From NCBI GenBank assembly GCA_000004985.1, contig GG738992.1: DNA of 13,412 nucleotides. One strand, 5' to 3'. Source of the DNA: Naegleria gruberi. Its lineage: Eukaryota. The notes under the pieces were generated by a model that was not told the DNA's origin, searched no databases, and saw only the letters and a list, made by a program, of their open reading frames with translations. Of this stretch, positions 261 to 12,826 are shown one piece after another. Position numbers and translations under genes: made by a program. How positions within the stretch are numbered: position 1 is the stretch's first letter; each line of letters starts with the position of its first letter.

Positions 261-779
261 ATGCCAATAAAACAAAGGAAGCATTCAAAGCAATGTTCTG
301 TTTGTTCAAAATACGTTCTCAAGGTTTATTTAAAACCGGAAGTCGATTCTTCAACATCAAAAACGAAGAAATATTGTTGCAGTAAATGTAGAGATGAGTT
401 ACGCAATGGTGGCAGTGATGATATTATGGAAGCTGATCAGCATGATGAAGGAGAAGATGGATTACATGGTACTCCAATGGCTTCTCAAATTTCTTCTCAA
501 TACAATACGTCTCAAAATCAGCCAAGCTTTCAGAGTCTAGTATATAATGGAATTTTACCTTCTTTTCAACCATTTCCCTCCAACACTACTGACAAAATTT
601 TCCCAATTCAAACATTTGCAAAATTTAGAATGATTGATTTTACCAATCACAATGATTCAGACCTGTCAAATTGTGGACCAATGTTAGGGATGGATTATAA
701 TCTTAGGAAAGAATTGGATAGAAATTGTCATATGGCTAGAACTATTCAATCCTCAAATAGTCTCATTTCTTATTTATGA
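261..779 (+). CDS. Hypothetical Cys-rich protein with a C-x2-C ... C-x2-C treble-clef-like arrangement. It is possibly one exon of a larger gene together with 796-1164.
   Basis: 172-aa ATG-initiated ORF. The 'CSVCSKY...(23 aa)...CCSKC' motif resembles a zinc-binding pair of Cys dyads. An acidic stretch 'DDIMEADQHDEGEDG' follows. No recognisable family. Confidence 0.3.
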   Translation: MPIKQRKHSKQCSVCSKYVLKVYLKPEVDSSTSKTKKYCCSKCRDELRNGGSDDIMEADQHDEGEDGLHGTPMASQISSQYNTSQNQPSFQSLVYNGILPSFQPFPSNTTDKIFPIQTFAKFRMIDFTNHNDSDLSNCGPMLGMDYNLRKELDRNCHMARTIQSSNSLISYL

Positions 780-795
780 TTCGAAATTCACTATA

Positions 796-1164
796 ATGGA
801 TAAAGTAGCCGCTTATTCATTCCTTACTTCTGCAGGATGTTCAATTTCAAAGGATGTGCATGAATGGTTGAGAGAAAAATTGTATGAGCAATTGAGAAAT
901 TCAATTCAGACCGAAAAAATCAAATCTGAAATCAAAAAATACACAAAAATTAGAAATTGTCAAACCTACACAGTGGTTGAGAATTCAAATGAGGTGAATG
1001 AAATGTCAAAAGAATTTAATCCAAAAGATGTTTCGAATGAAAGAAGTAGAAAAACAAAAAACAAACCAATTATTGAAATTAAAAAGAGTGCTGGTTTACA
1101 ATGTAACAACTGTAATTCCTTCCATATTACACTGGACATGTTTGGTGACGATTCATTCTTGTAA
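796..1164 (+). CDS. Hypothetical protein of unknown function.
   Basis: 122-aa ORF starting 17 bp after the stop of the 261-779 ORF, in a different frame. It is Lys/Glu-rich with a terminal 'CNNCNSF' Cys pair. It could be a second exon or frameshifted continuation of the upstream ORF. Confidence 0.25.
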   Translation: MDKVAAYSFLTSAGCSISKDVHEWLREKLYEQLRNSIQTEKIKSEIKKYTKIRNCQTYTVVENSNEVNEMSKEFNPKDVSNERSRKTKNKPIIEIKKSAGLQCNNCNSFHITLDMFGDDSFL

Positions 1165-4180: not shown

Positions 4181-4473
4181 NNNNNNNNNNNNNNNNNNNN
4201 NNNNNNNNNNNNNNNNNNNNNNNNNNNNNNNNNNNNNNNNNNNNNNNNNNNNNNNNNNNNNNNNNNNNNNNNNNNNNNNNNNNNNNNNNNNNNNNNNNNN
4301 NNNNNNNNNNNNNNNNNNNNNNNNNNNNNNNNNNNNNNNNNNNNNNNNNNNNNNNNNNNNNNNNNNNNNNNNNNNNNNNNNNNNNNNNNNNNNNNNNNNN
4401 NNNNNNNNNNNNNNNNNNNNNNNNNNNNNNNNNNNNNNNNNNNNNNNNNNNNNNNNNNNNNNNNNNNNNNNNN
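4181..4473. other. Assembly gap (run of N).
   Basis: 293 consecutive 'n' characters. The six-frame ORFs crossing it (X runs) are artefacts of the gap. Confidence 0.99.
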
Positions 4474-5061: not shown

Positions 5062-6189
5062 TTAACTACTACTATCACTGTTCTTTTGCTGGGCTTTCTT
5101 TCTAGTCTGACGATAATTATCAAATCTCTTCTTTTTTACCTTCTGATCCTCAACGGCATCGACAGTAGTAAGCTTGATTGCAGCCACTTCCAATTCCTTC
5201 AAATCATTATTTGAGTATGGAGGTTTTTCTAAATGGAACATCTCCACAAGTTTATCAACAGCCATACCAAATTGACCAATAGTTTTCACTTCTACTTGTT
5301 GTATTGGTGTGAGAGAGTAAGTGTTTCCTCTGAATGTGAAGGAGGTTGCTTTACATACCTCATCTTCATCTTCTACCCAGACTGCTGCTAAAGCTTCCCT
5401 GACCTTTCTCTTCTTTTGTTTAAAATGGAATTCGACTTGAGAAGTTCTCTTTTTGGCCTCTGATTCGGATTTAACTAGCTCCTCATTCAATTTCTTCAAT
5501 GTATCACATTCCAAAACAAGTTGGTCAGTTCTTTGAGCAAGTTCATCACGTTCTTGAACTAATTGGGCTATTCTTTCTTCATACTTTTTTTGCTGAAATT
5601 CAAATGTTGTGGAATGAATCATGTTGTTTGTAGGACCACAACTGGAAAAACTAGGAATAGTTCCTCCCGAAAAACTTGGAATTGAAAAATTAGAAATAAT
5701 TTCAGAACTACTTGCGCTTCCACCAACAACAGCACCACTATATATATTAACATGAGGAGCAGAAGGAAAACTTGAAATGTTACCAAATGGTTGAGTCATT
5801 CTTGATGATGTAGGAAGGGATGACGATGGTGTAAATAATGTTGCCAATGGTGGTTGTGATGGTTGTTGTTGAGATAGATGAGGAATAACATTTTGTGAAA
5901 TGGTTGAAAACACTGTTGGAGGTGAAGGACCAAAAATGTCTGAATTATCAACATGATTATTCTTTGGATCCAATAAGGTTGTCATATTGACAAGTGAACT
6001 AGCCGAAGTTTTATGGAGATCAGCAAAGTCTATGGCTAATTCATTCCATTTCCAATTCAACACGGCACCAACTATAAACTCTGCATTATTGAAAACCAAG
6101 TTAGAGTTTGTCTCCACAGCACTGACAGAGATTTGCATCTGGGTATCATCATTACTTACAAATCCCATGACTTTTCCTACACATAACAT
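5062..6189 (-). CDS. Hypothetical protein of unrecognised family. It has an N-terminal globular segment, a Ser/Pro/Gln-rich low-complexity linker, a central coiled coil and a C-terminal globular domain of about 120 aa.
   Basis: 375-aa ORF from ATG to TAA (stop at 5062-5064). The middle 'KKYEERIAQLVQERDELAQRTDQLVLECDTLKKLNEELVKSESEAKK' is heptad-like coiled coil. The long 'SQQQPSQPPLATLFTPSSSLPTSS' region is low complexity. Amino-acid composition is coding-like and there are no internal stops over 1.1 kb in AT-rich DNA. Confidence 0.55.
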   Translation of the reverse strand: MLCVGKVMGFVSNDDTQMQISVSAVETNSNLVFNNAEFIVGAVLNWKWNELAIDFADLHKTSASSLVNMTTLLDPKNNHVDNSDIFGPSPPTVFSTISQNVIPHLSQQQPSQPPLATLFTPSSSLPTSSRMTQPFGNISSFPSAPHVNIYSGAVVGGSASSSEIISNFSIPSFSGGTIPSFSSCGPTNNMIHSTTFEFQQKKYEERIAQLVQERDELAQRTDQLVLECDTLKKLNEELVKSESEAKKRTSQVEFHFKQKKRKVREALAAVWVEDEDEVCKATSFTFRGNTYSLTPIQQVEVKTIGQFGMAVDKLVEMFHLEKPPYSNNDLKELEVAAIKLTTVDAVEDQKVKKKRFDNYRQTRKKAQQKNSDSSS

Positions 6190-6364
6190 TCATCATAAGG
6201 AACAACAAGTATTACACTAATAGGCCCTTCAGGCTTATTCTTGAGAAGATTATCACTTGTCACAGTATGCTTCTGGATGTAGAGGTAGTTGGATGTTGGA
6301 TCTAACAAGTTTCAACTTTTTCAAGATTAAAGCCTTGTGTGAGAACAGACTTGTGTCACTCATC
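6190..6364. promoter_or_regulatory. Putative shared, bidirectional promoter or 5'UTR region between the divergent genes 5062-6189 (-) and 6257-7558 (+).
   Basis: The two ORFs run head-to-head. The first 36 codons of the + ORF ('MSQYASGCRGSWMLDLTSFNFF...') look non-protein-like, so the real start is probably the Met at about 6365 ('MRLSLTSIQ...'). That leaves about 175 bp between the two start codons. Confidence 0.3.
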
Positions 6365-7558
6365 ATGCGTTTATCATTAACATCCATACAAAGAACCTCA
6401 ACAAACACTACCTTAACAAAGGCTAAGAAGAAGAGACTATTGGAAAGTGGAAGGGAGGATGTTATATTAGAGTTTCTTGCAATGAAGAGACGAAATCGAC
6501 AATTAGCAAAAAGTAATAATAACAGCCTCAATCATCAACAACAACCTCAACAACCTCAACATTCTTTTAATTGCTCTACTCTTGGTTGTCAGTGTCATCA
6601 TCATCAATACGACCCTTATCATCATCATGTACCAAGTCATCAGATTCCTTCTACAGGTCAAGTAGAAACCAATATTAATCATCAAACTATGCACGAATTA
6701 GAATTGGGTGGAATTGATACAGTGATGAGCAATAGTCATCGTGTTGATGATGATGATTATGAAGGATTGGATTTTCTTCAAGCATTGCAAAGTGGACTCT
6801 TAAAGAAGGCTAGAGACTCACTTCTCGAAGATGATAAACCTCTCTTCAAAGGATCAGAGCATACCTTCACAGACATGTCTCTCACTCTAGCCAAATACTT
6901 TGCTGAATCAAAGAGTTCAAAAGCCAATATGAACACTCTAATCACAATCATCAACTCGATCTTTGGACCAATCCTCAACAAGAGAATACCCAAACTAAAA
7001 ACAATCCTCAACAAGATTGAAAATGTAAAGAAGGATTACGAGCAAGTCTATTATTGTGCTAGTCATGAGCAAATCATTCCTAGAGGAGGTGAATGTAGCA
7101 TCTGCAAGGCAAAGATTGGAAAGTCACCTTACTATTGGCATAAGTCCTTCAAATCCTGTATTTCAGAATTGGTGGAAATAACTGGATTAGCCAAATTGAA
7201 AGAGGTTGTAAAAAGACCAAGCTTTCTTTCTCACCCCTCATTAACAACAACAAGAACAACAACATTACATTCAACAATTACATCAAATCAATCTCCACCT
7301 CAATCATTAGCAACAACAACAACAAGAATTGGAAATAGTACCACTACTACTGCTCAACATCTTCAAACAATAGCAGATTGTTGTGATTCAACAGAATACG
7401 AAAGAATTACAGGTAATGGTTGGTGGGATGATAATGCTCTTTGCCTCACACTGAGTGCTGGTACTGATGGTGCATGTGCTACAAAATCAACAAATAAGAG
7501 CATCAATCCTCTCCTTGCTTGGATCAATGAGCTGCCCTTGGAAACTCGATTCTCATAA
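6257..7558 (+). CDS. Hypothetical Gln/His/Thr-rich protein with a basic N-terminal segment and a Cys pair ('CASHEQIIPRGGECSICKAKIG'). The true start is probably internal, near 6365.
   Basis: 433-aa ORF ending in TAA at 7556-7558. It has low-complexity poly-Q/H ('NHQQQPQQPQH', 'CQCHHHQYDPYHHHVP') and poly-T/N tracts ('SLTTTRTTTLHSTITSNQSPPQSLATTTTRIGNSTTTTAQ'). No family recognised. Confidence 0.5.
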   Translation: MSQYASGCRGSWMLDLTSFNFFKIKALCENRLVSLIMRLSLTSIQRTSTNTTLTKAKKKRLLESGREDVILEFLAMKRRNRQLAKSNNNSLNHQQQPQQPQHSFNCSTLGCQCHHHQYDPYHHHVPSHQIPSTGQVETNINHQTMHELELGGIDTVMSNSHRVDDDDYEGLDFLQALQSGLLKKARDSLLEDDKPLFKGSEHTFTDMSLTLAKYFAESKSSKANMNTLITIINSIFGPILNKRIPKLKTILNKIENVKKDYEQVYYCASHEQIIPRGGECSICKAKIGKSPYYWHKSFKSCISELVEITGLAKLKEVVKRPSFLSHPSLTTTRTTTLHSTITSNQSPPQSLATTTTRIGNSTTTTAQHLQTIADCCDSTEYERITGNGWWDDNALCLTLSAGTDGACATKSTNKSINPLLAWINELPLETRFS

Positions 7559-7744
7559 CGGTAAGCTTTCTTCTTGCCTATGCAAACCATTCCATTCCAT
7601 ACAAAGTTCTCTTACACAATTTTATCAGTGAATTAATCTTGCTAGATAGGGGTGTTGAGATGAAGGATCCACATAATAACAACTCTACCTATACTCTAAA
7701 GGTGAGATTGTTTAACATGATTAGATTTAGTCTCCATTCAAGAA

Positions 7745-8170
7745 TTGTTAGAAATTGGACATGCTGGGTGCAATGGTTGTCGGTTCTGTAACCTTCTTGG
7801 TAGAAAGGATAAAGATACAGGTGTTATTTATTCATCCATTAGTGGTTGCAATAGCAGTGGCCAAGGTAACCCAATTACACGAAATTGGGAACAAATGAAA
7901 CCAAATTTTATCAAACTGTACAAGAATGAAATTCCATCCTTTGAAGGAGTTTCGGGTGTTTCCATTCTATTAAGGTTACCCTATTTTAGAGGGACAACAC
8001 AGGTGAGTTGTGATGTATTGCACAATCTCTTGGAAGGAAGGTACTCAATAGAATTGTTGTTCTCTATGATAGACACCTTCCAGATATTAATAGTAAGTTG
8101 CGCTTTCAAATTATTATATTGTTGTAACAATTCAAATTATTATAACACCAACAATATAATTATATCGTGA
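7745..8170 (+). pseudogene. Transposase relic fragment 1, carrying the Cys-rich 'HAGCNGCRFCN' and 'DVLHNLLEG' motifs.
   Basis: 141-aa ORF. A GTAAGT donor-like site at 8093 follows 'FQILI'. The downstream sequence reads as AT-rich intron-like DNA. Confidence 0.35.
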
Positions 8171-8981: not shown

Positions 8982-9064
8982 TGAATAATGTAAAATACAT
9001 GATTATGGGAAAGTAAGTTTGTTTTGTTTTAATTACATATTTAATTTATTCGAATATAAATTTT

Positions 9065-9100
9065 CAATTCAATCAATCAATTCAATTCAATCAATTCAAT
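9065..9100. repeat. Simple-sequence repeat (CAATT/CAATCAATT)n.
   Basis: The sequence is 'caattcaatcaatcaattcaattcaatcaattcaat', seen directly. Confidence 0.8.
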
Positions 9101-9155: not shown

Positions 9156-10208
9156 TCATTTTCTTTCAAAAAAACCTTTGTAATCGGCAGCCATTTTGTT
9201 TAACTGCTTCCAATACAATTCTCTATCTTTTCTTAATGATTCATCAGCATATTCAAGTGCACGTCTATTTTGTTTAACTGCTTCCAATACAAATTCTTTA
9301 TCTTTTCTTAATGATTCATCAGCATATTTAAGTGCACATCCAGTTTGTTTAACTGCTTCCAATATAATTTCTTTATCTTTTCTTAATGATTCATCAACAT
9401 ATTTAAGTGCACATCCATTTTGTTTAATTGCTTCCAATACAATTTCTCTATCTTTTCTTAATAATTCATCAGCATATTCAAGTGCACATCCAGTTTGTTT
9501 AACTGCTTCCAATATAATTTCTTTATCTTTTCTTAATGATTCATCAGCATCTTCAAGTGCAAAGCCATTTTGTTTAACTGCTTCCAATACAATTTCTCTA
9601 TCTTTTCTTAATAATTCATCAGCATATTCAAGTGCAAAGCCATATTGTTTAATTGCTTCCAATACAATTTCTCTATCTTTTCTTAATGAGTTATCAGCAT
9701 ATTCAAGTGCACGTCCATTTTGTTTAACTGCTTCCAATACAATTTCTCTATCTTTTCTTAATAATTCATCAGCATATTCAAGTGCAAAGCCATTTTGTTT
9801 AACTGCTTCCAATACAAATTCTTTATCTTTTCTTAATGAGTTATCAGCATATGCAAGTGCACGTCCATTTTGTTTAATTGCTTCCAATACAATTTCTCTA
9901 TCTTTTCTTAATGAGTTATCAGCATCTTCAAGTGCACGTCCATTTTGTTTAACTGCTTCCAATACAAATTCTTTATCTTTTCTTAATGAGTTATCAGCAT
10001 ATTCAAGTGCACATCCATTTTGTTTAACTGCTTCCAATACAAACTCTCTATCTTTTCTTAATAATTCATCAGCATCTTCAAGTGCACTAATATTTTGTTT
10101 GATAACTGCCAATACAATTTGTCTATCTTGTTTTAAATATTTTGGCTTGTCTTTTTCTTTCAAAAATGCCTTTGTAATCGGCCAGCCATTTTGTTTAACT
10201 GCTTCCAA
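9156..10208 (-). CDS. Kinase locus segment 4. It has a non-repeat linker 'WPITKAFLKEKDKPKYLKQDRQIVLAVIKQNISALEDADELL', about 12 repeats, and the tail 'ELYWKQLNKMAADYKGFFERK'.
   Basis: 350-aa ORF. It is in frame with segment 3 if a single T is restored in 'caatacaattctct' near 10212. Confidence 0.5.
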   Translation of the reverse strand: MEAVKQNGWPITKAFLKEKDKPKYLKQDRQIVLAVIKQNISALEDADELLRKDREFVLEAVKQNGCALEYADNSLRKDKEFVLEAVKQNGRALEDADNSLRKDREIVLEAIKQNGRALAYADNSLRKDKEFVLEAVKQNGFALEYADELLRKDREIVLEAVKQNGRALEYADNSLRKDREIVLEAIKQYGFALEYADELLRKDREIVLEAVKQNGFALEDADESLRKDKEIILEAVKQTGCALEYADELLRKDREIVLEAIKQNGCALKYVDESLRKDKEIILEAVKQTGCALKYADESLRKDKEFVLEAVKQNRRALEYADESLRKDRELYWKQLNKMAADYKGFFERK

Positions 10209-12826
10209 TACAATTCTCTATCTTTTCTTAATGATTCATCAGCATATTCAAGTGCACGTCTATTTTGTTTAACTGCTTCCAATACAATTTCTTTATCTTT
10301 TCTTAATGATTCATCAGCATCTTCAAGTGCACATCCATTTTGTTTAACTGCTTCCAATACAAATTCTCTATCTTTTCTTAATGATTCATCAGCATCTTCA
10401 AGTGCACGTCTATTTTGTTTAATTGCTTCCAATACAATTTCTCTATCTTTTCTTAATGATTCATCAGCATCTTCAAGTGCACGTCTATTTTGTTTAACTG
10501 CTTCCAATACAATTTCTTTATCTTTTCTTAATGATTCATCAGCATATTTAAATGCAAAGCCAGTTTGTTTAACTGCTTCCAATACAAATTCTCTATCTTT
10601 TCTTAATGATTCATCAACATATTTAAGTGCAAAGCCATTTTGTTTAATTGCTTCCAATACAAATTCTCTATCTTTTCTTAATGATTCATCAGCATCTTCA
10701 AGTGCACGTCTATTTTGTTTAACTGCTTCCAATACAATTTCTTTATCTTTTCTTAATGATTCATCAACATATTTAAGTGCAAAGCCATTTTGTTTAACTG
10801 CTTCCAATACAAATTGTTTATCTTTTCTTAATGATTCATCAGCATATTTAAATGCAAAGCCATTTTGTTTAACTGCTTCCAATACAATTTCTCTATCTTT
10901 TCTTAATGATTCATCAACATATTTAAATGCAAAGCCATTTTGTTTAACTGCTTCCAATACAAATTCTCTATTTTTTCTTAATGATTCATCAACATATTCA
11001 AGTGCACGTCCATTTTGTTTAACTGCTTCCAATACAATTTCTCTATCTTTTCTTAATGATTCATCAGTATATTTAAGTGCACGCCAATTTGTTTAACTGC
11101 TTCCAATACAATTTCTCTATCTTTTCTTAATGATTCATCAGCATCTTTAAGTGCACAGCCATTTTGTTTAACTGCTTCCAATACAATTTCTCTATCTTTT
11201 CTTAATGATTCATCAGCATCTTCAAGTGCACATCCATTTTGTTTAACTGCTTCCAATACAATTTCTCTATCTTTTCTTAATGATTCATCAACATATTTAA
11301 GTGCAAAGCCATTTTGTTTAACTGCTTCCAATACAAATTCTCTATCTTTTCTTAATGATTCATCAACATATTTAAGTGCAAAGCCATATTGTTTAATTGC
11401 TTCCAATACAATTTCTCTATCTTTTCTTAATGATTCATCAGCATATCCAAGTGCAAAGCCATATTGTTTAATTGCTTCCAATACAATTTCTCTATCTTTT
11501 CTTAATGATTCATCAGCATATTCAAGTGCACGTCCATTTTGTTTAATTGCTTCCAATACAATTTCTCTATCTTTTCTTAATGATTTATCAGCATATTTAA
11601 ATGCCAAGCCATCTTGTTTAACTGCTTCCAATACAACTTCTCTATTATCCTTTGATAGTAGATGCAACGAAACCCCTTGTAATACACAAAGTAACTGTAT
11701 ACAACGATTTTTACGAAATCGGTAGAGTGTATGTATTTGGTGTGGTATTGTGATTGGTCCTGATAAATGTATATCAAAAATGGCCTCCAATATTCTGTTA
11801 GCAGAAAACCTTTTCTCCAATGATTCATCTAACATGCCTCTAAGTATTAATAATAATTCTCTCCATACGGTCACATCTTTCTCCAGATTTCCCCTTTCTA
11901 TTAATTCTAAAATATTATTGTCATCTAACAAGTCTATTTTTTGAATATCTTCTTGCAATTTCATTAGCACTTCAGCATGAGACTGTGTTTCATCTATTTT
12001 TCTAGCAAACAACAGCCACAGCATGGCTCTTCCCAAACTCCAGACATCACTTAATACACATTGTTCTCCTTTAAAACATTCTGGTGCAATATAACCACAT
12101 GTTCCGTGATGTGTTAAGTATGTGTCTGCAGTATCAGGAGTAGAAAATATATTAGTAGATGAATAAATTGGCTGACTTTTTGATGAAACAGTTCTGGCTA
12201 TTCCCAAATCACCCAATGCAGCATCAATGACATCAAATGAATAAATGGTTGGTTCAAAGCTAATAAAGATGTTTGCAGGTTTGATATCACTATGAATTAT
12301 ATTATGCTTATGCTCATGGAGTCGACATAATGCATTAGCAATTCTAATTAAAATTTGAAGCGCTTCACACAAGAACAATTTTCCTGATTTGTTCTTTCCA
12401 TATTTTTTCATATCCATTCCTCTATATTCTGATACAAGTACAATTTCTTCACCAATTAGTTCCGAAACCTCATAAGTTACCACTAGAATCGAACAACTTT
12501 TTCACAGTTGCAGCAAATCTCCATTCTCCTACTTGATAACCATCTGAATAAGTACCATTCAGATCATTACTTGGAAATATTCCATCAATTAGTTTAACAA
12601 TTTTAACAACGTATTCATATCCATCATCACCCAAACATTTACAAACCAAAGTATCACTTTTTGGATTTTCGAACACTTCTTGAAATTCAAATGATCGTCC
12701 TTTGATGCGAAATTGTTTCAATCGTATGATGGAAGTTATAAGATTTGGTGTGGTTTCTTCAACTTGAACTTGATCTATTTGTCCACCATCTCCAAAATCA
12801 CTAACTCGTTTCTGTGGTGCAAGCAT
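9156..12826 (-). CDS. Protein kinase with an N-terminal catalytic domain, fused to a C-terminal array of about 33 tandem 25-aa DUF4116-like repeats. The frame is interrupted by four single-base indels, so this is a possible pseudogene or an error-containing assembly.
   Basis: Read 5'->3' on the minus strand, the N-lobe ORF (12826->12470) has a Gly-loop-like 'FGDGGQ' and a beta-3 lysine in 'YEYVVKIVK'. The next ORF (12483->11053) has the hinge 'LVSEY', catalytic loop 'HSDIKPANIF' (12286-12294), 'DLG' (about 12208-12216), 'GTCGYIAPE' and 'DVWSLG'. It then runs into repeats of the form 'SLRKDREIVLEAVKQNGxALEYADE'. ORFs 11032->10160 and 10208->9156 continue the same repeats and end in 'RELYWKQLNKMA...', which is a -1-frame reading of a repeat unit. 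The ATG at 12824-12826 is the likely start. Confidence 0.7.
9200..11680. repeat. Tandem array of about 33 copies of a 75-bp unit. It encodes the 25-aa repeats on the minus strand, and copies are near-identical at the nucleotide level.
   Basis: The string 'ttaactgcttccaatac' recurs at an exact 75-bp period (for example 9275, 9350...). The + strand consensus is 'ttgtttaactgcttccaatacaatttctctatcttttcttaatgattcatcagcatattcaagtgcacgtccatt'. Variation is confined to a few positions. Confidence 0.92.
10160..11032 (-). CDS. Kinase locus segment 3, about 11 DUF4116-like repeats ending in the frameshift-derived tail 'ELYWKQLNKMAGRLQRHF'.
   Basis: 290-aa ORF composed entirely of 25-aa repeats. It is separated from segment 2 by a 1-bp deletion ('gcacgccaatttg' versus consensus 'gcacgtccattttg') near 11085. 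Confidence 0.55.
   Translation of the reverse strand: MEAVKQNGRALEYVDESLRKNREFVLEAVKQNGFAFKYVDESLRKDREIVLEAVKQNGFAFKYADESLRKDKQFVLEAVKQNGFALKYVDESLRKDKEIVLEAVKQNRRALEDADESLRKDREFVLEAIKQNGFALKYVDESLRKDREFVLEAVKQTGFAFKYADESLRKDKEIVLEAVKQNRRALEDADESLRKDREIVLEAIKQNRRALEDADESLRKDREFVLEAVKQNGCALEDADESLRKDKEIVLEAVKQNRRALEYADESLRKDRELYWKQLNKMAGRLQRHF
11053..12483 (-). CDS. Kinase locus segment 2, covering the kinase C-lobe (subdomains V-XI) plus the first 8 or so DUF4116-like repeats.
   Basis: 476-aa ORF whose track start is GTG, not ATG. It contains the motifs HSD, DLG, APE and DxWSLG, then the repeats. Confidence 0.6.
   Translation of the reverse strand: MVTYEVSELIGEEIVLVSEYRGMDMKKYGKNKSGKLFLCEALQILIRIANALCRLHEHKHNIIHSDIKPANIFISFEPTIYSFDVIDAALGDLGIARTVSSKSQPIYSSTNIFSTPDTADTYLTHHGTCGYIAPECFKGEQCVLSDVWSLGRAMLWLLFARKIDETQSHAEVLMKLQEDIQKIDLLDDNNILELIERGNLEKDVTVWRELLLILRGMLDESLEKRFSANRILEAIFDIHLSGPITIPHQIHTLYRFRKNRCIQLLCVLQGVSLHLLSKDNREVVLEAVKQDGLAFKYADKSLRKDREIVLEAIKQNGRALEYADESLRKDREIVLEAIKQYGFALGYADESLRKDREIVLEAIKQYGFALKYVDESLRKDREFVLEAVKQNGFALKYVDESLRKDREIVLEAVKQNGCALEDADESLRKDREIVLEAVKQNGCALKDADESLRKDREIVLEAVKQIGVHLNILMNH
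12470..12826 (-). CDS. Kinase locus segment 1, covering the kinase N-lobe (subdomains I-IV).
   Basis: 118-aa ATG-initiated ORF with 'RVSDFGDGGQIDQV' (Gly-rich loop variant) and 'GYEYVVKIVKL' (VAIK-like, with Lys). It ends at a TGA that overlaps the next segment by a +1 shift. Confidence 0.55.
   Translation of the reverse strand: MLAPQKRVSDFGDGGQIDQVQVEETTPNLITSIIRLKQFRIKGRSFEFQEVFENPKSDTLVCKCLGDDGYEYVVKIVKLIDGIFPSNDLNGTYSDGYQVGEWRFAATVKKLFDSSGNL

What the first reader, a model, noticed from the sequence alone, without database searches (positions are those of the whole stretch)
10195..12490. Four single-base indels break the kinase/repeat ORF: pseudogene, programmed frameshifting, or assembly error
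The first break, at about 12470-12486, is a +1 shift between the N-lobe ORF ('...KKLFDSSGNL*') and the C-lobe ORF ('VTYEVSELIGEEIVLVSEY'). The spacing is too short for an intron. The second, at about 11085, is a missing base in 'gcacgccaatttg' versus consensus 'gcacgtccattttg'. The third and fourth, at about 10212 and about 9218, are a missing T in a TTT run. All are single-nucleotide, and three are in homopolymers. This pattern is typical both of long-read consensus errors and of young pseudogenes. The duplicated indel (see the previous finding) argues that at least that one is genuine.
Basis: seen in the sequence. Interest (0 to 1): 0.5.

Follow-up and report, generated by a model that had tools for sequence, protein, structure and literature searches.

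The report
Decayed kinase–DUF4116 gene copy in Naegleria
The four frame breaks are real features of this Naegleria gruberi scaffold and most likely mark a recently inactivated duplicate of a kinase–repeat gene lying among other broken genes, which is an ordinary finding.

Summary
The window is a whole 13,412-bp Sanger-sequenced scaffold of Naegleria gruberi NEG-M. On the minus strand it carries a protein kinase fused to 31 near-identical 75-nt DUF4116 repeats. All four reported frame breaks exist, but the description needs correcting.

- **Break 1 (about 12482):** this is a 2-nt deletion relative to four in-frame paralogs. It lies inside the kinase N-lobe.
- **Break 2 (about 11084):** this is a 1-nt deletion. 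It sits in the one repeat unit that also carries two private substitutions.
- **Breaks 3 and 4 (about 10213 and 9218):** these are one lesion, present in two copies of a roughly 150-nt 3' module. Break 4 alters only the last 20 or so codons.
- **Homopolymers:** none of the breaks is in a long homopolymer.

The programmed-frameshift reading has no support. No slippery heptamer is present, the shifts needed differ in sign, and the paralogs read straight through. Long-read error does not apply to a Sanger assembly.

Other genes on the scaffold are also decayed. One has a 10-nt deletion flanked by microhomology, and another is a truncated 99%-identical copy of an intact gene.

Best reading: a young pseudogene (about 0.7). 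Low-coverage Sanger errors at breaks 1 and 2 cannot be excluded without reads (about 0.2). Interest is low.

The parts
12470..12826 (-). ORF1: ATG and the kinase N-terminal part (beta1-alphaC, 118 aa), ending SSGNL*
   Evidence: It is 93% identical to residues 1-115 of the N. gruberi paralog P0001.
12480..12484 (-). Break 1: 2-nt deletion (AGTGTGGTA to AGTGGTA) inside the N-lobe, between alphaC and beta4
   Evidence: Paralogs P0001, P0002, P0138 and P0139 all have two hydrophobic residues here with no gap. The codons AGT and GTG overlap by 2 nt in the window.
11782..12450 (-). Remainder of the protein kinase domain (beta4 to alphaI): HSDIKPAN, DLG and APE present
   Evidence: Pfam PF00069, E=1.9e-19. 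Residue-level alignment to PDB kinase 3q5i.
10232..11645 (-). DUF4116 array 1: about 19 units of 75 nt (25 aa)
   Evidence: TRF period 75, 92% matches. Unit table. Pfam PF13475.
11057..11130 (-). The 74-nt unit carrying break 2 (1-nt deletion at about 11083-11084) plus two private substitutions (N to I, A to T)
   Evidence: This unit holds 3 of the 8 private changes in the array.
10160..10231 (-). Terminal module A: a unit one base short (break 3 at about 10213) plus a tail. As it stands it ends ...RELYWKQLNKMAGRLQRHF*
9237..10159 (-). Linker with a diverged unit (NGWPITKAFLKEKDKPKYLKQDRQIVLAVIKQN...) and DUF4116 array 2 (about 12 units). Array 2 has private variants (DNS, DEL) that are absent from array 1
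9156..9236 (-). Terminal module B: the same short unit (break 4 at about 9218) plus a tail. As it stands it ends ...RELYWKQLNKMAADYKGFFERK*, and non-coding microsatellite DNA follows

Best explanation
The locus is a young, unprocessed pseudogene. It is a recently duplicated member of the small Naegleria gruberi family of kinases with a C-terminal DUF4116 repeat array, and it has acquired three independent small deletions.

- A 2-nt deletion in the kinase N-lobe truncates the product to 118 aa.
- A 1-nt deletion falls in repeat unit 7.
- A 1-nt deletion falls in the last repeat unit. This third lesion now exists twice, because the 3' module that carries it (penultimate unit, terminal unit and tail) was duplicated or copied by gene conversion within the array.

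The gene lies on a short, unplaced scaffold rich in repeats, where neighbouring genes are also decaying.

What is shown: the lesions exist in the assembly, paralogs are in frame at break 1, lesions 3 and 4 have a shared origin, and the neighbours are decayed. What is inferred: that breaks 1 and 2 exist in the organism's DNA and are not consensus errors, and that the copy is not expressed as protein.
For: **Source.** ORF 796-1161 is exactly XP_002668635.1 (NAEGRDRAFT_76446), which sits on a 13,412-bp contig. The assembly was Sanger-sequenced.

**Family.** P0138 (850 aa, intact kinase plus 13 DUF4116 hits), P0139, P0002 and P0001 are all from N. gruberi. All four read through the break-1 position without a gap.

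**Annotation.** No annotated protein matching this locus was found in a 5.8-billion-protein set.

**Lesions 3 and 4.** They sit in two copies that are identical over the roughly 127 nt up to the tails, apart from one mismatch. The flanking tails have diverged.

**Decay elsewhere on the scaffold.**
- The gene at 6257-8100 (+) differs from its intact homolog by deletions of 1 nt and 2 nt, and by a 10-nt deletion flanked by GAAGG microhomology.
- Region 261-1131 is a 99%-identical copy of only residues 1-291 of the 884-aa P0136, and it has lost 2 nt of a Pro codon.
- The gene at 5062-6284 (-) changes frame and lacks the first 126 or so codons of its homolog.

All seven independent frame lesions on the scaffold are deletions, and three are 2 nt or longer. 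This fits a deletion-biased mutation spectrum better than base-calling noise.
Against: Every ORF segment stays open right up to the next break. The catalytic residues (Lys, HxD Asp, Asn, DLG Asp, APE) are intact. About 1220 codons contain no nonsense substitution. The lesions are therefore either very recent or artefacts.

No reads, quality values or transcripts could be consulted. The scaffold is small and repetitive, so its coverage may be low. The three changes clustered within 20 nt in unit 11130 could reflect a low-quality stretch of sequence. The DNA of the paralogs could not be retrieved, so dN/dS was not measured. Variation among repeat units neither shows nor excludes constraint (2 of 24 variants synonymous, p=0.07).
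Confidence: 0.7

Rival explanations
1. This is an intact gene with assembly errors. Breaks 1 and 2 are consensus errors in a low-coverage Sanger scaffold. The short terminal unit is real and simply defines the natural C-terminus. The true product is then an 889-aa kinase-DUF4116 protein ending at 10160, followed by an untranslated partial duplicate of the 3' array.
For: All segments are open and well conserved, and there are no nonsense substitutions. The kinase domain is collinear with P0002 and P0138 and is more complete than the annotated P0001. The scaffold is small, repetitive and contains a gap. Unit 11130 has three clustered changes. Fixing breaks 1 and 2 gives 889 aa, close to the 850 aa of the intact paralog.
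Against: Break 1 is a 2-nt loss in a non-homopolymer context, which is unusual for Sanger base calling. Other genes on the same scaffold carry lesions that cannot be base-calling errors, namely a 10-nt microhomology deletion and a truncated copy. No gene model exists for this locus in the public annotation.
Confidence: 0.2
2. The gene is expressed by programmed ribosomal frameshifting or another form of recoding, with the ribosome changing frame at each break.
For: The only support is that an open, conserved frame continues after each break.
Against: There is no canonical X XXY YYZ heptamer in any of the three overlap windows of 32, 40 and 58 nt. The shifts needed differ in sign. No stop-adjacent AAA-TAR motif of the Euplotes type is present at break 1. 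Four paralogs encode the break-1 region in a single frame, and the other 28 repeat units are in frame, so the shift sites are not conserved. To my knowledge no such system has been described in Naegleria.
Confidence: 0.02
3. The breaks are very short spliceosomal introns.
For: A GT...AG string of 12-15 nt can be drawn at break 1 (GTGGTAACTTATGAG).
Against: Lengths of 12 and 15 nt are multiples of three, so removing either would not change the frame. Every residue on both sides of the junction is accounted for in the paralog alignments. Breaks 2 to 4 are simple 1-nt deficits within a repeat that is otherwise exactly 75 nt.
Confidence: 0.01

Closest known systems
N. gruberi predicted protein NAEGRDRAFT_62160 (XP_002682207.1; P0001, 475 aa)
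   Same: It is the nearest paralog. The N-lobe is about 93% identical and residues 116-250 about 92% identical. It has the same HSD/DLG kinase and the same LRKDREIVLEAVKQNG-type DUF4116 units.
   Different: P0001 is in frame at the break-1 position (DSS-VV-TYEV). However, its model lacks the kinase alphaF-alphaI region (about 130 aa) that the window copy retains. It has far fewer repeats and a different C-terminus.
N. gruberi NAEGRDRAFT_53795 (XP_002670086.1; P0138, 850 aa), an intact kinase-DUF4116 fusion
   Same: It has the same architecture (Pkinase plus 13 DUF4116 hits) and the same linker between kinase and repeats. It also lacks a Gly-rich loop.
   Different: Its kinase domain is only 39% identical. 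Its repeat units have diverged from one another, whereas the window's 31 units are about 90-92% identical at the DNA level. It has an uninterrupted ORF, and a copy at least 90% identical exists on a metagenome contig.
Unprocessed (duplicated) pseudogenes in tandem-repeat genes that evolve in concert
   Same: A paralog of functional genes is disabled by small deletions. One lesion has been propagated within the array by duplication or gene conversion.
   Different: Inactivation has not been verified by reads or by expression data. No nonsense substitutions have accumulated yet.

Membership tests
Eukaryotic protein kinase domain (Pfam PF00069) | A significant match to the family profile | tested here: met
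   PF00069 E=1.9e-19, 70.5 bits against a cut-off of 31.7, for ORF2. PDB kinases match down to E=2e-9.
Eukaryotic protein kinase domain (Pfam PF00069) | Catalytic residues: beta3 Lys, catalytic-loop Asp and Asn, DFG Asp, APE | tested here: met
   VVKIVK, HSDIKPAN, GDLG and IAPE align with AIKVIK, HRDIKPEN, DFG and APE of 3q5i. The Arg of HRD is replaced by Ser.
Eukaryotic protein kinase domain (Pfam PF00069) | Glycine-rich ATP-binding loop (GxGxxG) | tested here: not met
   FENPKSDTLVCKC aligns with LGSGAYGEVLLCK and contains no glycine. The loop is also absent from paralogs P0001, P0002 and P0138.
DUF4116 repeat (Pfam PF13475) | Repeated significant matches to the profile | tested here: met
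   E=7.6e-89, 5e-214 and 6.8e-241 for the three repeat ORFs, with 4, 11 and 12 matched stretches.
Pseudogene (unprocessed, from duplication) | Clear homology to intact paralogs, together with frame-disrupting lesions relative to them | tested here: met
   for the paralogs. for the lesions. This holds only for the assembled sequence.
Pseudogene (unprocessed, from duplication) | The lesions are present in genomic DNA and are not consensus errors | not testable with these tools
   No reads or quality values are available. No independent assembly of the locus was found. The indirect support is that lesion 3/4 is shared by two diverged copies and that other genes on the scaffold are decayed.
Pseudogene (unprocessed, from duplication) | Relaxed selective constraint (dN/dS near 1), or no expression | tested here: inconclusive
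   Among repeat-unit variants, 2 of 24 are synonymous against 22% expected (p=0.07), and none creates a stop against 8% expected. Expression is not testable here.
Programmed -1 ribosomal frameshift site | A slippery heptamer X XXY YYZ in the zero frame within the region where the two frames overlap | tested here: not met
   None was found in the 32-, 40- and 58-nt overlap windows.
Programmed -1 ribosomal frameshift site | The two-frame arrangement is conserved in homologs | tested here: not met
   Four paralogs are in frame at break 1. The 28 other repeat units are in frame.

The most novel reading that the evidence does not exclude
The short 74-nt terminal repeat unit is not damage. It would be a maintained C-terminal cap, a frame-shifted repeat that ends the solenoid. 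Its presence in the middle of the array would then mark a boundary at which the cell makes either an 889-aa or, by occasional -1 slippage, a roughly 1220-aa isoform. Breaks 1 and 2 would be assembly errors.
Probability: 0.02. Interest if true: 0.55.

Novelty: new member of a known kind. Interest (0 to 1): 0.15.

Why it matters
The finding matters little beyond annotation hygiene. It identifies an unannotated, probably dead member of a small kinase–DUF4116 family that may be restricted to Naegleria; relatives were found only in N. gruberi. It also shows that the one gene model on this scaffold (NAEGRDRAFT_76446) is a fragment of a decayed gene copy.

There is a modest side interest. The array of 31 near-identical 25-aa repeats, with one lesion copied between two positions, is a clear example of concerted evolution spreading a disabling mutation. 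The family itself (a non-RD kinase lacking a Gly-rich loop, fused to an unsolved alpha-solenoid repeat) is uncharacterised.

Tried and rejected
- **Paralog DNA.** I tried to fetch the DNA of paralogs P0001 and P0002, and an independent copy of a window ORF, by exact-product look-up. Nothing was on record. Frame ancestry therefore had to be inferred from protein alignments, and dN/dS was impossible.
- **Metagenome scan.** A scan with the kinase domain found one unrelated kinase at 31% identity (L002). It was not used.
- **Tail motifs.** The tail peptides (WPITK, YWKQ, LQR[FH]F, FLKEKD, NKMA) were searched in 137 retrieved homologs to decide which tail frame is ancestral. There were no matches.
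- **Neighbouring proteins.** Pfam scans of P0136 and P0137 gave no significant family.
- **Irrelevant scans.** The bacterial promoter/terminator scan does not apply to a eukaryote. The tRNA scan found nothing.
- **Short-intron idea at break 1.** Rejected: the candidate GT..AG strings are 12 or 15 nt, and the paralog alignment leaves no room for an intron.
- **Array 2 as a recent copy of array 1.** Rejected: only the last 150 or so nt correspond unit for unit, and each array has private variants.
Full report
**Source of the window.** The 122-aa ORF at 796-1161 is identical to XP_002668635.1 / EFC35891.1 (NAEGRDRAFT_76446) of Naegleria gruberi. The contig recorded for that protein is 13,412 bp, exactly the window length. 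The window is therefore a complete small scaffold of the JGI NEG-M assembly, which was Sanger-sequenced (PMC9928731, Table 1). Ordinary low-coverage Sanger errors remain possible.

**What the gene is.** On the minus strand, an ATG at 12826 opens a divergent protein kinase, followed by DUF4116 repeats. Pfam gives PF00069 at E=1.9e-19 and PF13475 at E values down to 7e-241. Alignment to solved kinases shows the beta3 Lys (VVKIVK), HSDIKPAN, DLG and APE. There is no glycine-rich loop and no Arg before the catalytic Asp. The repeats form a 75-nt (25-aa) tandem array of 31 units at 90-92% identity. DUF4116 has no solved structure and is predicted to be an alpha-solenoid (PMC8078820).

N. gruberi has a small family with this architecture:
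- P0138 (850 aa), which is intact, with a kinase and 13 DUF4116 matches
- P0139 (691 aa)
- P0002 (404 aa)
- P0001 (475 aa), the closest, about 93% identical in the N-lobe

No annotated protein corresponds to the window locus itself.

**Checking the four breaks.** All four exist.

- **Break 1.** Frame A reads ...FDSSGNL* and frame B reads VVTYEVSEL.... All four paralogs read D[SA]S-[VL][VL]-T[YF] with no gap. In the window the AGT (Ser) and GTG (Val) codons share two bases. The window has therefore lost 2 nt (AGTGTGGTA to AGTGGTA), not one. The site lies between alphaC and beta4, inside the N-lobe.
- **Break 2.** The unit at 11130-11057 is 74 nt (GGACGT or GGCTGT has become GGCGT). It also carries two private substitutions. 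Together these make 3 of the 8 private changes in the whole array. A rough estimate of my own puts the chance that some unit carries three or more at about 0.07.
- **Breaks 3 and 4.** The units starting at 10231 and 9236 both read GAA-TTGTATTGG, one base short. Each is preceded by the only two '...NRRALEY...' units and followed by a similar tail. The two modules differ at 1 of about 127 positions up to the tail. The tails then differ by 7 mismatches and 3 indels in about 60 nt, and homology fades inside a degenerate repeat unit. This is one lesion present in two real, distinct copies, spread by duplication or gene conversion.

As the sequence stands, module A ends ...KMAGRLQRHF* and module B ends ...KMAADYKGFFERK*. 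Restoring the bases gives these lengths:
- 889 aa with breaks 1 and 2 fixed
- 1224 aa with breaks 1 to 3 fixed
- 1221 aa with all four fixed

Break 4 therefore alters only the last 20 or so residues. It is unresolved whether module A was once an in-frame linker (NGWPITKAFLKEKDKPKYLKQDRQIVL...) or whether everything downstream of 10160 is an untranslated partial duplicate. The tail peptides have no counterpart in 137 homologs.

**Recoding and introns.** The three regions where successive frames overlap are 32, 40 and 58 nt long. None contains a canonical -1 slippery heptamer. Break 1 would need a +1/-2 shift and the others a -1 shift. Paralogs and the sister repeat units are in frame. GT..AG strings at break 1 are 12 or 15 nt, which preserves the frame, and the paralog alignment leaves no residues unaccounted for. 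Both ideas are rejected.

**Context on the scaffold.**
- **Region 261-1131 (+).** This is a 99%-identical copy of residues 1-291 only of the 884-aa P0136 (NAEGRDRAFT_51511). A Pro codon is reduced to a single base, which is a 2-nt deletion, and the rest of the protein is nowhere in the scaffold.
- **Gene at 6257 to about 8100 (+).** This is homologous to an intact 632-aa ORF on metagenome contig L001. It changes frame three times. DNA alignment shows a 1-nt deletion at 7558, a 2-nt deletion (TTTT to TT) at about 7721, and a 10-nt deletion flanked by GAAGG microhomology at about 8037.
- **Gene at 5062-6284 (-).** This also changes frame at about 6179 and lacks the first 126 or so codons of its L001 homolog.

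Decay on this scaffold is therefore real and cannot all be base-calling noise. All seven independent frame lesions are deletions, and three are 2 nt or longer.

**Verdict.** The most likely reading (about 0.7) is a young unprocessed pseudogene of the kinase-DUF4116 family in a region rich in repeats and decaying genes.

The main caveat is that every ORF segment is still open, the catalytic residues are intact and there is no nonsense substitution. Variation among repeat units gives no verdict on constraint (2 of 24 variants synonymous, p=0.07). Breaks 1 and 2 could therefore be consensus errors in an otherwise intact 889-aa gene (about 0.2). Only reads, resequencing or transcripts can decide. 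Paralog DNA and independent assemblies were not obtainable here.

This is an ordinary result of low interest.

Noticed in passing
window 261-1164 (+): This is a 99%-identical but truncated copy (residues 1-291 only) of the 884-aa N. gruberi protein NAEGRDRAFT_51511, with a 2-nt loss at 762. The annotated gene NAEGRDRAFT_76446 (796-1164) is just the second fragment of this dead copy.
   Followed up: yes
window 5062-6284 (-) and 6257 to about 9050 (+); L001 1142-2788 (-) and 2825-5400 (+): A head-to-head pair of genes with no Pfam match; the (+) one has CxxC motifs. The pair is adjacent both here and on a metagenome contig from a Naegleria-like organism (ENA ERZ929261, 74-79% nt identity). Here both are decayed (deletions of 1, 2 and 10 nt, and a 5' truncation). 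The flanking genes differ (an ANTH-domain gene in L001, the kinase here), so the pair may be a mobile element.
   Followed up: partly
P0001 (NAEGRDRAFT_62160), residues about 250-260: The closest annotated paralog jumps from ...CFKGEQCLLS directly into DUF4116 repeats. It lacks the kinase alphaF-alphaI region and linker (about 130 aa) that the window copy and P0002/P0138 retain. This is either a real deletion or a predicted intron that hides lesions, so this paralog may also be defective.
   Followed up: no
window 9237-11645 (-): Nearly all differences among the 29 full repeat units change the amino acid (22 of 24 variant types). They fall at a few positions (I/F, V/I, GR/GF/GC/RR, E/K, Y/D, A/V) that are reshuffled among units. 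Arrays 1 and 2 each have private variants (AFK in array 1; DNS and DEL in array 2).
   Followed up: partly
window 9196-10272 (+) and 10191-11096 (+): Long ORFs (358 and 301 aa) run antisense to the repeat array. They arise because the repeat unit has no stop codon in that frame and are not evidence of a gene.
   Followed up: no
window 9063-9100: A TTCAA / TCAATTCAA microsatellite lies immediately downstream of the gene's 3' end.
   Followed up: no
window 4181-4473: A scaffold gap of 293 N. The six ORFs that the ORF listing reports across it are artefacts of translating N.
   Followed up: yes
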